Sequence record: NC_138367.1
Source of the DNA: a phage
Reading direction: 5' to 3' (one strand)
Length of the DNA: 4,221 nucleotides
Part shown: positions 1,325 through 2,371 of the stretch, in pieces
How the letters are laid out: each line of letters begins with the position of its first letter
Position numbering within the stretch: position 1 is the first letter of the stretch
Position numbers and translations under genes: made by a program
Notes under the pieces: model-generated
What the model was told of the DNA's origin: nothing
Seen by the model: only the letters and a program-made list of their open reading frames with translations
Databases searched by the model: none

Positions 1325-1350
1325 AACTTTGGGTCAATTTGATCATGGCA
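1250..1350 (+). promoter_or_regulatory. Approximate S-site (replicase/S1 binding region just upstream of and overlapping the coat start), placed by positional homology
   Basis: Established knowledge for Qbeta: an internal replicase/S1 binding site lies immediately 5' of the coat initiation codon. Coordinates are transferred from memory and not derivable from this sequence alone. Confidence 0.35.
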
Positions 1351-1746
1351 AAATTAGAGACTGTTACTTTAAGTAACATCGGGAAAGATGGAAAACAAAC
1401 TCTGGTCCTCAATCCGCGTGGGGTAAATCCCACTAACGGTGTTGCCGCGCTTTCACAAGCGGGTGCAGTTCCTGCGCTGGAGAAGCGTGTTACCGTTTCG
1501 GTATCACAGCCTTCTCGTAATCGTAAGAACTACAAGGTCCAAGTTAAGATCCAGAACCCGACCGCTTGTACTGCAAACGGTTCTTGTGACCCATCCGTTA
1601 CTCGCCAGGCATATGCTGACGTGACTTTTTCGTTCACGCAGTATAGTACCGATGAGGAACGAGCTTTTGTTCGTACAGAGCTTGTCGCTCTGCTCGCTAG
1701 TCCTCTGTTGATTGATGCTATCGATCAGCTGAACCCAGCGTATTGA
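1345..1746 (+). CDS. cp: Major coat (capsid) protein
   Basis: AUG at 1345 (MAKLETVTLSNIGKDGKQTLVLNPRGVNPTNGVA...) to UGA at 1744..1746 is 402 nt = 133 aa, matching the levivirus coat protein in size and sequence. The ORF-track start at 1321 is a UUG overlapping the A2 stop and is not the real start. Confidence 0.92.
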   Translation: MAKLETVTLSNIGKDGKQTLVLNPRGVNPTNGVAALSQAGAVPALEKRVTVSVSQPSRNRKNYKVQVKIQNPTACTANGSCDPSVTRQAYADVTFSFTQYSTDEERAFVRTELVALLASPLLIDAIDQLNPAY

Positions 1747-2337
1747 ACACTGCTCATTGCCGGTGGTGGCTCAGGGTCTAAACCCGATCCGGTTATCATT
1801 CCGGATCCACCGATCGATCCGCCGCCAGGGACAGGTAAATATACTTGTCCTTTCGCAATTTGGTCCCTAGAGGAGGTTTACGAGCCTCCTACTAAGAACC
1901 GACCGTGGCCTATCTATAACGCTATCGAACTCCAGCCTCGCAAGTTTGATGTTGCCCTTAAAGATCTTTTGGGCAATACAAAATGGCGCGACTGGGATTC
2001 ACGGCTTAGTTATACCACGTTTCGCGGTTGCCGTAGCAACGGTTATATTGACCTTGATGCGTCTTATCTTGCTACTGATCAGGCTATGCGTGATCAGAAG
2101 TACGATATTCGCGAAGGCAAGAAACCCGGTGCTTTCGGTAACGTTGAGCGATTCATTTATCTTAAGTCGATAAATGCTTATTGCTCTCTTAGCGATATTG
2201 CGGCCTATCACGCCGATGGTGTGATAGTTGGCTTTTGGCGCGATCCATCTAGTGGTGGTGCCATACCGTTTGACTTCACTAAGTTTGATAAGACTAAATG
2301 TCCTATTCAAGCCGTGATAGTCGTTCCTCGTGCTTAG
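1345..2337 (+). CDS. A1: A1 read-through protein (coat protein with C-terminal extension; minor capsid protein required for infectivity)
   Basis: The coat frame continues through UGA 1744..1746 into ...TLLIAGGGSGSKPDPVIIPDPPIDPPPGTGKYTCPFAIWSLEEVYEPP...AVIVVPRA and ends at tandem stops UAG UAA (2335..2340). Total is 330 sense codons including the read-through codon. The Gly/Pro-rich linker after the coat domain is typical of A1. Confidence 0.85.
1744..1746 (+). other. Leaky UGA stop codon of the coat gene (programmed read-through site, decoded at low frequency by tRNA-Trp)
   Basis: The coat ends in UGA followed by A (UGA-A). The same frame stays open with no stop from 1747 to the UAG at 2335..2337, which I checked codon by codon. 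This is the hallmark of Qbeta-type A1 read-through. Confidence 0.85.
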
Positions 2338-2342
2338 TAACT

Positions 2343-2351: not shown

Positions 2352-2371
2352 ATGCATGTCTAAGACAGCAT
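2352..2371 (+). promoter_or_regulatory. Coat-protein translational operator hairpin at the replicase start (repressor binding site and packaging signal)
   Basis: Seen in sequence: AUGCAUGUCUAAGACAGCAU forms an 8-bp stem with a single bulged A (position 2356, the A of the start codon) and a 3-nt loop UAA (2361..2363). The replicase AUG (2356..2358) lies inside the 5' arm. This matches the known Qbeta operator architecture of 3-nt loop plus bulged A. Confidence 0.8.

What the first reader, a model, noticed from the sequence alone, without database searches (positions are those of the whole stretch)
1744..2337. Programmed UGA read-through generating the A1 minor capsid protein
The coat gene terminates with a single UGA in UGA-A context, and the same frame is open for a further 196 sense codons to a tandem UAG-UAA. 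In Qbeta-type phages a few percent of ribosomes read through this UGA to make A1, which is incorporated in a few copies per virion and is essential for infection. The extension begins with a Gly/Ser/Pro-rich flexible linker (GGGSGSKPDPVIIPDPPIDPPPGTG).
Basis: partly seen in the sequence, partly recalled or inferred. Interest (0 to 1): 0.5.

Follow-up and report, generated by a model that had tools for sequence, protein, structure and literature searches.

The report
Qβ-type coat-gene UGA read-through (A1)
The window is a complete, already deposited genome of a Qβ-type RNA phage, and the finding is the textbook leaky UGA at the end of its coat gene, which lets a few percent of ribosomes make the longer A1 minor capsid protein; it is real but ordinary.

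Summary
The coat gene (1345-1746) ends in one UGA (1744-1746), followed by A. The same frame stays open for exactly 196 sense codons (1747-2334) and ends in UAG-UAA (2335-2340). Chance gives this about 1 time in 10,000.

The window is a complete 4221-nt Qubevirus durum genome. Its A2, coat and replicase proteins are exact matches to NCBI entries ACT66733, ACT66734 and ACT66736. The extension matches Pfam "Read-through domain" PF16814 (E=9.5e-94) and the crystal structure of the Qβ A1 read-through domain, 3RLC/3RLK (E=6e-128). The UGA sits at the homologous codon in all 20 relatives checked, across both Qubevirus species. Pairwise dN/dS for the extension is 0.06-0.25, so it is a translated protein. 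The literature documents Trp insertion at this UGA, 3-5% read-through, and the need for A1 in infection.

Two refinements: the Pro-rich "linker" is reported to form a polyproline-II helix, and group IV phages use UGA-G, so +4A is not universal.

Minor extras: an additional Ile codon (1795-1797) lies in a linker-length hotspot. That hotspot coincides with the loop of a predicted hairpin inside a forked stem-loop 15 nt after the UGA. Already known; low interest.

The parts
1345..1746 (+). Major coat protein gene (133 codons plus UGA)
   Evidence: Pfam Levi_coat PF01819, E=3.3e-60. Exact match to NCBI ACT66734.1 'capsid protein [Escherichia phage Qbeta]'. Homologous CDS annotated in TW18, Qβ, M11 and MX1.
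1744..1747 (+). Leaky stop codon UGA plus the +4 base A (context GCG UAU UGA ACA CUG)
   Evidence: TGA at the homologous column in all 15 aligned genomes; +4 is A in group III and G in group IV. UGA followed by A is reported to be especially prone to misreading by tRNA-Trp in E. coli (PMC5289835 citing Engelberg-Kulka 1981).
1747..2334 (+). Read-through extension, 196 sense codons, translated only as a C-terminal fusion to the coat protein (A1, 330 residues counting Met and the residue at the UGA)
   Evidence: No in-frame stop. dN/dS 0.06-0.25 against group III strains. Variable sites among group III strains by codon position 1/2/3 = 57/44/125. tblastn identity 91-97% to annotated A1 proteins of close Qβ strains, 87% to VK and BR12, 70-74% to MX1 and M11, and 35-44% to group IV.
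1747..1779 (+). Junction and Gly/Ser-rich linker (TLLIAGGGSGS)
   Evidence: Translation. Conserved in group III; Gly/Ser-rich but different in sequence in group IV.
1780..1830 (+). Pro-rich segment KPDPVIIPDPPIDPPPG. It carries one extra Ile codon (ATC, 1795-1797) relative to Qβ.
   Evidence: Alignments. The segment is included in crystal-structure chain 3RLC_A. Reported to form a polyproline-II helix (PMC6526423). Extension length ranges from 195 to 199 codons among isolates. Within group III (195-198) all the length differences lie here; group IV also differs by indels further downstream.
1798..2331 (+). Region matched by Pfam Read-through domain PF16814 (A1 residues 152-329)
   Evidence: E=9.5e-94, 312.8 bits, profile positions 5-182 of 182; 3RLC/3RLK 'A1 protein', E=6.2e-128.
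2335..2340 (+). Tandem terminators UAG UAA that end A1, 15 nt before the replicase start codon (ATG 2356)
   Evidence: UAG-UAA is conserved in all group III genomes checked; group IV has a single UAA.
1762..1826 (+). Predicted forked stem-loop inside the linker-coding RNA. Closing stem GGUGGUGG 1762-1769 / CCGCCGCC 1819-1826. Hairpin 1: 1774-1777 / 1782-1785. Hairpin 2: 1786-1792 / 1801-1807, with loop 1793-1800 holding the indel hotspot.
   Evidence: MFE fold, z = -2.2; alifold. The same architecture is predicted in 10 of 12 group III and all 6 group IV sequences folded singly; FrMerlot and FrBurgundy give a shifted fold. Three compensatory pairs in the group IV closing stem. Almost no variation in group III. 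No role in read-through has been shown.
1880..1883 (+). Loop ACGA of stem-loop RT4 inside the extension. In the Qβ virion it is reported to form a long-range kissing loop with UCGU in the replicase gene (here UCGC, 2848-2851).
   Evidence: PMC8880383. Mapped to the window and checked across group III: C-to-U in RT4 co-occurs with G-to-A in R22 in M11, BZ1 and VK.

Best explanation
This is the coat/A1 gene pair of a Qβ-type (Qubevirus durum) RNA phage.

Most ribosomes that translate the coat gene terminate at UGA 1744-1746 and release the 133-residue coat protein. A small fraction instead decode the UGA with a near-cognate tRNA. In Qβ this is tRNA-Trp, and the A at +4 favours the misreading. 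Those ribosomes continue in the same frame for 196 more codons to UAG-UAA and produce A1.

A1 consists of the coat domain, a Gly/Ser linker, a Pro-rich segment and a globular read-through domain. Because its N-terminal part is a normal coat subunit, A1 co-assembles into the capsid in a few copies with the extra domain on the outside. In Qβ, A1 is required for infectious particles.

Shown here: the sequence anatomy, homology, conservation of the UGA, and purifying selection on the extension. Taken from the literature on Qβ: the residue inserted, the read-through frequency, incorporation into virions, and essentiality.
For: - Anatomy.
- Genome identity: 95.8% nt identity to Qβ strain TW18 over the full length, and 92-96% to other Qβ strains, all of which annotate a coat plus read-through CDS pair. 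A2, coat and replicase are exact matches to NCBI ACT66733, ACT66734 and ACT66736 on a 4221-nt record.
- Domains: Levi_coat plus Read-through PF16814; PDB 3RLC/3RLK A1 protein, E=6e-128.
- Conservation: TGA at the homologous codon in all 15 aligned genomes of Q. durum and Q. faecium, plus BR1, HB-P24 and BR12 and two IMG/VR contigs.
- Coding constraint: extension dN/dS is 0.06-0.25, close to the coat gene's 0.03-0.22; third-position variation dominates.
- No in-frame internal start codon has an SD-like motif upstream.
- Literature: Trp misincorporation at the UGA (PMC6526423); 3-5% read-through (PMC13517186); about 10 copies per capsid, essential, on the capsid exterior (PMC10248866; PMC13114773); UGA-A is prone to tRNA-Trp misreading (PMC5289835).
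Against: Nothing in the sequence argues against it. Limits:
- No protein-level data exist for this particular strain.
- The precise function of A1 in infection is still unknown (PMC10248866, PMC13114773).
- Group IV phages use UGA-G, so the +4A cannot be the only determinant of leakiness across the genus.
- The exact A1 sequence written with W at the UGA was not found in the protein collection. This probably reflects how that record is stored.
Confidence: 0.97

Rival explanations
1. Same read-through, but its efficiency is set partly by the conserved forked RNA stem-loop that starts 15 nt (group III) to about 18-21 nt (group IV) downstream of the UGA. This would resemble the 3' stimulatory structures of eukaryotic-virus read-through sites.
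For: A forked stem-loop (window 1762-1826) is predicted by MFE and alifold. The same architecture is predicted in 10 of 12 group III and all 6 group IV phages folded individually, although the two groups differ in sequence. Three pairs of the group IV closing stem change on both sides, and 94% of cells are paired against 28-48% when the partners are slid. A 2026 review lists the downstream structure for Qβ as 'not determined' (PMC13517186).
Against: - The stem arms are Gly codons (GGN) pairing with Pro codons (CCN), so complementarity follows partly from the protein sequence.
- Group III shows almost no covariation. The shuffle control for group IV is only modest: 14 of 500 shuffles reach the covariation score.
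- A 15-21 nt spacer places the stem beyond the ribosome's mRNA entrance when the UGA is in the A site (my own knowledge).
- The general leakiness of UGA-A in E. coli already accounts for a few percent read-through (PMC5289835).
- The hairpins more plausibly serve genome folding and packaging, like the other stem-loops of the Qβ gRNA model (PMC8880383).
Confidence: 0.1
2. The extension is made as a separate protein from an internal start (for example TTG 1969 or ATG 2086), not by read-through.
For: the ORF listing reports a 122-aa ORF at 1969-2337. Automatic gene callers in public assemblies have called 122-, 194- and 199-aa products from this region (P0027-P0029, P0017).
Against: None of the four in-frame ATG/GTG/TTG codons has an SD-like motif upstream. 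Homology, frame conservation and purifying selection run without a break from the UGA through the linker. The crystallised domain starts at extension residue 11, far upstream of those starts. The Pfam domain match starts at extension residue 18.
Confidence: 0.02
3. The UGA is recoded by a dedicated mechanism (selenocysteine insertion through a SECIS-like hairpin) rather than by near-cognate tRNA-Trp.
For: UGA is the Sec codon, and RNA structure is predicted downstream.
Against: No Rfam family matched this region, even at E<=1. The first stable predicted helix starts 15 nt after the UGA instead of abutting it. The literature reports Trp at this position in Qβ (PMC6526423, PMC10248866), and database A1 entries carry W there (P0020, P0026).
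Confidence: 0.005
4. The open frame is a chance feature or only reflects RNA-structure constraints, and no protein is made from it.
For: None beyond the fact that this RNA region also carries conserved structure.
Against: P of about 9e-5 by chance. Strong protein-level homology to a solved structure. dN/dS well below 1. The frame is kept through all linker indels, which are multiples of 3.
Confidence: 0.005

Closest known systems
Bacteriophage Qβ A1 minor capsid (read-through) protein, UniProt Q8LTE1; structure of its read-through domain PDB 3RLC/3RLK
   Same: Same genome position and same UGA-A context (GCG UAU UGA ACA CUG). Same junction sequence NPAY-W-TLLIAGGGSGSKPDPV. Same tandem UAG-UAA. 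The read-through domain is about 97% identical in the aligned 185 residues.
   Different: One extra Ile in the Pro-rich segment (VIIPDPP against VIPDPP), giving 196 rather than 195 extension codons. Five substitutions relative to the crystallised domain (V>I, E>K, G>S, T>S, I>V).
A1 of environmental Qβ-group strains (TW18, BR12, VK, BZ1, FrSangria, FrMerlot, FrBurgundy, GIII_C)
   Same: Same architecture, same UGA-A and same UAG-UAA. 87-97% amino-acid identity in the extension.
   Different: They differ mainly at the same linker spot: 195 codons (TW18, VK, BZ1; BR12's annotated CDS has the same length), 196 (FrSangria, VITPDPP), 197 (GIII_C), 198 (FrMerlot, FrBurgundy). The window has its own variant, VIIPDPP.
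A1 of group IV phages SP, FI and NL95 (Qubevirus faecium)
   Same: Coat gene ends in a single UGA at the homologous codon. The extension is 197-199 codons with a Gly/Ser linker, a Pro-rich segment and a homologous read-through domain. An analogous forked stem-loop is predicted downstream.
   Different: +4 base is G, not A. A single UAA terminator. Only 35-44% identity in the domain.
Stop-codon read-through in eukaryotic viruses (TMV, MuLV, alphaviruses, coltiviruses)
   Same: A leaky stop produces a C-terminally extended minor product at a fixed low ratio from one ORF. Qβ was the first viral case described (PMC13517186).
   Different: Those systems depend on defined 3' hexanucleotide contexts and/or a stimulatory structure 2-12 nt downstream, and act on eukaryotic ribosomes with eRF1. 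For Qβ no stimulatory structure has been established (listed ND in that review).

Membership tests
Qubevirus (formerly Allolevivirus) coat/A1 read-through gene pair | The upstream ORF is a levivirus-type coat protein | tested here: met
   Pfam Levi_coat PF01819, E=3.3e-60, residues 2-133. Exact match to ACT66734.1.
Qubevirus (formerly Allolevivirus) coat/A1 read-through gene pair | The coat ORF ends in a single UGA at the conserved position (after ...NPAY) | tested here: met
   TGA 1744-1746. TGA in the same alignment column in all 15 genomes. Also in BR1, HB-P24 and BR12 and in L018 and L019.
Qubevirus (formerly Allolevivirus) coat/A1 read-through gene pair | An in-frame extension of about 195-200 codons that ends just upstream of the replicase gene | tested here: met
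   196 codons, 1747-2334. UAG-UAA at 2335-2340. Replicase ATG at 2356.
Qubevirus (formerly Allolevivirus) coat/A1 read-through gene pair | The extension is homologous to the A1 read-through domain | tested here: met
   PF16814, E=9.5e-94, above the 27-bit cutoff at 312.8 bits. 3RLC/3RLK, E=6.2e-128.
Qubevirus (formerly Allolevivirus) coat/A1 read-through gene pair | The extension evolves as a translated protein (purifying selection, indels in multiples of three) | tested here: met
   dN/dS 0.06-0.25. Variable sites by codon position 57/44/125. Linker indels of 3, 6 and 9 nt.
Qubevirus (formerly Allolevivirus) coat/A1 read-through gene pair | Genome layout: maturation/lysis A2, then coat/A1, then replicase, on a ~4.2-kb plus-strand RNA | tested here: met
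   Phage_mat-A, Levi_coat plus Read-through, and RNA_replicase_B in that order. Full-length collinearity with Qβ genomes.
Qubevirus (formerly Allolevivirus) coat/A1 read-through gene pair | The UGA is decoded as Trp by tRNA-Trp in a few percent of translation events | not testable with these tools
   Literature on Qβ only: PMC6526423, PMC13517186 (3-5%), PMC5289835. The codon context is identical to Qβ.
Qubevirus (formerly Allolevivirus) coat/A1 read-through gene pair | A1 is incorporated into virions in a few copies and is required for infectivity | not testable with these tools
   Literature on Qβ only: Hofstetter et al. 1974 as cited in PMC10248866 and PMC13114773.
Bacterial selenocysteine recoding (UGA plus SECIS) | A SECIS hairpin immediately 3' of the UGA | tested here: not met
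   No Rfam family matched at E<=1 apart from a chance miRNA hit elsewhere. The predicted stable helix begins 15 nt after the UGA.
Structure-stimulated read-through (MuLV pseudoknot, alphavirus or coltivirus stem-loops) | A conserved RNA structure a short distance 3' of the stop codon that is needed for efficient read-through | tested here: inconclusive
   A conserved forked stem-loop is predicted 15-21 nt downstream in both species, with modest covariation. Whether read-through needs it cannot be tested here.

The most novel reading that the evidence does not exclude
The forked stem-loop at 1762-1826 is built from Gly codons pairing with Pro codons. It is predicted in both Qubevirus species despite sequence divergence, and natural linker indels, including this strain's extra Ile codon, are confined to one of its hairpin loops. 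It may be more than a packaging element: it could tune how often ribosomes read through the UGA. That would be a bacterial counterpart of the 3' stimulatory structures of eukaryotic-virus read-through, a point a 2026 review still lists as 'not determined' for Qβ.
Probability: 0.08. Interest if true: 0.35.

Novelty: already known. Interest (0 to 1): 0.06.

Why it matters
The Qβ coat/A1 UGA was the first programmed stop-codon read-through described in any virus, and it underlies Qβ peptide display. Finding it in this window only confirms that the scan recognises a known recoding site in a deposited genome.

Two small points have some practical value. First, automated gene callers still miss the read-through and call fragments of the extension as separate ORFs. 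Second, natural variation in A1 length is concentrated at one spot of the Pro-rich segment, and that spot coincides with an RNA hairpin loop. This suggests where insertions are tolerated at both the protein and the RNA level.

Tried and rejected
- The Rfam scan at E<=1 gave only a sub-threshold miRNA match (mir-2574, 22 bits against a gathering score of 90, at 1927-1999). I treated it as chance.
- The first PDB search failed because the query contained the stop codon. I repeated it with the extension alone.
- An exact look-up of A1 written with W at the UGA was not in the protein collection.
- FJ483841 is not in the annotated collections. Rumnieks & Tars 2011 (PMC3218364) is not held. The strain name HL4-9 and that accession are therefore inferences by elimination.
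- A profile scan of IMG/VR for distant relatives of the read-through domain returned only 4 loci: two Qβ-like contigs, SP and FI. It gave no new diversity.
- The minus-strand ORF 1999-2310 (103 aa) is interrupted in M11, MX1 and GIII_C, so I rejected it as a gene.
- Internal initiation is rejected: no SD-like motifs.
- A small MFE hairpin that includes the UGA itself was not reproduced by the alignment fold, so I dropped it.
- I did not run the large protein-database searches or a structure prediction, because a 97%-identical crystal structure already exists.

Full report
**1. The observation**

The window was read in full and translated across the region.
- The coat ORF starts at ATG 1345 and ends at TGA 1744-1746. 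The next base is A.
- Frame 0 then runs for 588 nt, or 196 sense codons (1747-2334), to TAG 2335-2337 and TAA 2338-2340.
- The other two plus-strand frames of the stretch hold 6 and 22 stops. The three minus-strand frames hold 3, 12 and 20.
- From base composition, the probability that 196 codons stay open is 8.8e-5. Only 2 of 20,000 shuffles stayed open.

**2. What the window is**

Megablast against phage records shows full-length collinearity with Qβ-group genomes. Identity is 95.8% to strain TW18, 92-96% to other Qβ strains, and about 75% to M11 and MX1. Each of these records annotates a maturation gene, a coat gene, a read-through CDS that shares the coat start, and a replicase.

Pfam assigns Phage_mat-A to 62-1321, Levi_coat plus Read-through (PF16814) to the coat-extension fusion, and RNA_replicase_B to the last ORF.

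The A2, coat and replicase proteins are exact matches to NCBI ACT66733.1, ACT66734.1 and ACT66736.1, all on a 4221-nt record. These accession numbers fall between those of TW18 (FJ483840) and BR12 (FJ483842). Of the eight group III strains listed in PMC6963950, the only one not otherwise matched is HL4-9. The window is therefore most likely that deposited genome. This is an inference: the record itself is not in the collections.

**3. Is the extension a real protein, made as a fusion?**

- The 196-residue extension matches the crystallised "A1 protein" read-through domain (3RLC/3RLK) with E=6.2e-128. There is one inserted residue and five substitutions.
- tblastn finds it in 85 phage records. 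All are Qubevirus, and the match is annotated A1 or read-through protein in all but one listed record, a 25-residue partial match.
- I built a codon alignment of the window and 14 relatives from Qubevirus durum and Q. faecium. All 15 genomes have TGA in the same column. The base after it is A in all group III genomes and G in all group IV genomes.
- BR1, HB-P24 and BR12 and two metagenome contigs from IMG/VR also keep the UGA.
- Pairwise dN/dS of the extension against group III strains is 0.06-0.25, similar to the coat gene (0.03-0.22). Variable sites fall 57/44/125 on codon positions 1/2/3.
- All length differences are multiples of three.
- None of the four in-frame ATG/GTG/TTG codons inside the extension has an SD-like motif. 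Conservation runs uninterrupted from the UGA onward.

Together these points show a translated C-terminal extension of the coat protein, not a separate gene.

**4. Mechanism**

What follows rests on published work on Qβ, not on tests made here.
- The UGA is occasionally read as tryptophan (PMC6526423; PMC10248866).
- Read-through is 3-5% (PMC13517186 citing Weiner & Weber 1973).
- UGA followed by A is particularly prone to misreading by tRNA-Trp in E. coli (PMC5289835 citing Engelberg-Kulka 1981).
- About ten copies of A1 replace coat subunits, with the extra domain on the capsid exterior. A1 is needed for infectious particles, but its exact role is unknown (PMC10248866; PMC13114773).

The window has the identical 15-nt context GCG UAU UGA ACA CUG, so the same mechanism is the only reasonable reading.

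- The Pro-rich part of the "linker" is reported to form a 15-residue polyproline-II helix and is part of the crystallised chain. Only TLLIAGGGSGS is plausibly flexible.
- The UGA-A context is not universal in the genus, because group IV uses UGA-G.

**5. Rivals**

- Internal initiation, selenocysteine recoding and a chance open frame are each contradicted.
- One variant cannot be excluded: that downstream RNA structure modulates read-through.
  - Folding predicts a forked stem-loop at 1762-1826. Its closing stem is GGUGGUGG/CCGCCGCC, that is, Gly codons pairing with Pro codons, and it encloses two hairpins.
  - The same architecture appears in 10 of 12 group III and all 6 group IV genomes folded singly. 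FrMerlot and FrBurgundy give a shifted fold.
  - In group IV the closing stem shows three compensatory pairs. 94% of cells are paired, against 28-48% for slid controls.
  - In group III there is almost no variation to test.
  - The hairpins probably correspond to the first read-through-region stem-loops of the cryo-EM genome model, in which RT4 is at 1866-1890 (PMC8880383).
  - A 2026 review lists the downstream structure for Qβ read-through as not determined.
  - I rate a stimulatory role as unlikely, for three reasons: the spacer is 15-21 nt, the complementarity is partly forced by the protein sequence, and UGA-A leakiness is sufficient on its own.

**6. What is particular to this strain**

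The extension has 196 codons rather than the 195 of Qβ, because of an extra Ile codon (ATC, 1795-1797; VIIPDPP against VIPDPP). Other natural isolates carry 195-199 codons, and within group III the indels fall at exactly this spot. At the RNA level the spot is the loop (1793-1800) of the predicted hairpin 1786-1792 / 1801-1807. Insertions there would spare both the stem and the flanking Pro residues.

**7. Verdict**

The finding is correct and its interpretation is supported. It describes the classic Qβ coat/A1 read-through in a genome that is already in GenBank with this feature annotated in all its close relatives. Novelty: already known. Interest: low.

Noticed in passing
window 1793-1800 (extra codon 1795-1797): This strain has one more Ile codon than Qβ in the Pro-rich segment. 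Among the group III isolates (195-198 extension codons) all length differences fall at this one spot, which is also the loop of a predicted hairpin (1786-1792 / 1801-1807)..
   Followed up: partly
window 1762-1826; L008-L011, L015, L016 equivalent regions: A forked stem-loop is predicted 15 nt after the UGA. Its closing stem is made of Gly codons (GGUGGUGG) pairing with Pro codons (CCGCCGCC). Group IV phages show the same architecture with a different sequence and three compensatory pairs..
   Followed up: partly
window 1880-1883 and 2848-2851: In Qβ a kissing loop is reported between RT4 (ACGA) and replicase-gene stem-loop R22 (UCGU). Here and in FrMerlot the R22 loop reads UCGC. That turns one of the four pairs into an A·C mismatch and changes Tyr to His in the replicase. 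In M11, BZ1 and VK, a C-to-U change in RT4 is matched by G-to-A in R22, which supports the interaction.; PMC8880383.
   Followed up: partly
window 1999-2310, minus strand: A 103-aa ORF on the complementary strand is open in 8 of 11 group III genomes but interrupted in M11, MX1 and GIII_C. It is most likely a by-product of the codon composition of the plus-strand frame..
   Followed up: yes
window 1969-2337 and public assemblies (P0017, P0027-P0029): Automatic gene callers in public metagenome and SRA assemblies report 122-, 194- and 199-aa proteins that are fragments of the A1 extension. So the read-through is routinely mis-annotated as a separate ORF..
   Followed up: no
window 50/62, 1321/1345, 2347/2356: The mechanical ORF list starts A2, coat and replicase at upstream in-frame ATG or TTG codons (50, 1321, 2347). 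The starts annotated in homologous records correspond to 62, 1345 and 2356..
   Followed up: partly
window 2352-2371: AUGCAUGUCUAAGACAGCAU spans the replicase start codon and begins 12 nt after the UAA that ends A1. From memory it is the Qβ coat-protein translational operator hairpin. This was not checked with tools.
   Followed up: no
protein cluster 3: The 90%-identity cluster that holds the replicase also holds many 283-aa bacterial EF-Ts proteins. This is presumably a clustering artefact, perhaps bridged by engineered EF-Ts/EF-Tu/replicase fusion chains. It is not a property of the phage.
   Followed up: no
window 2335-2340 versus L008-L011: The tandem UAG-UAA that ends A1 is conserved in every group III genome checked, while group IV phages end A1 with a single UAA..
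   Followed up: no
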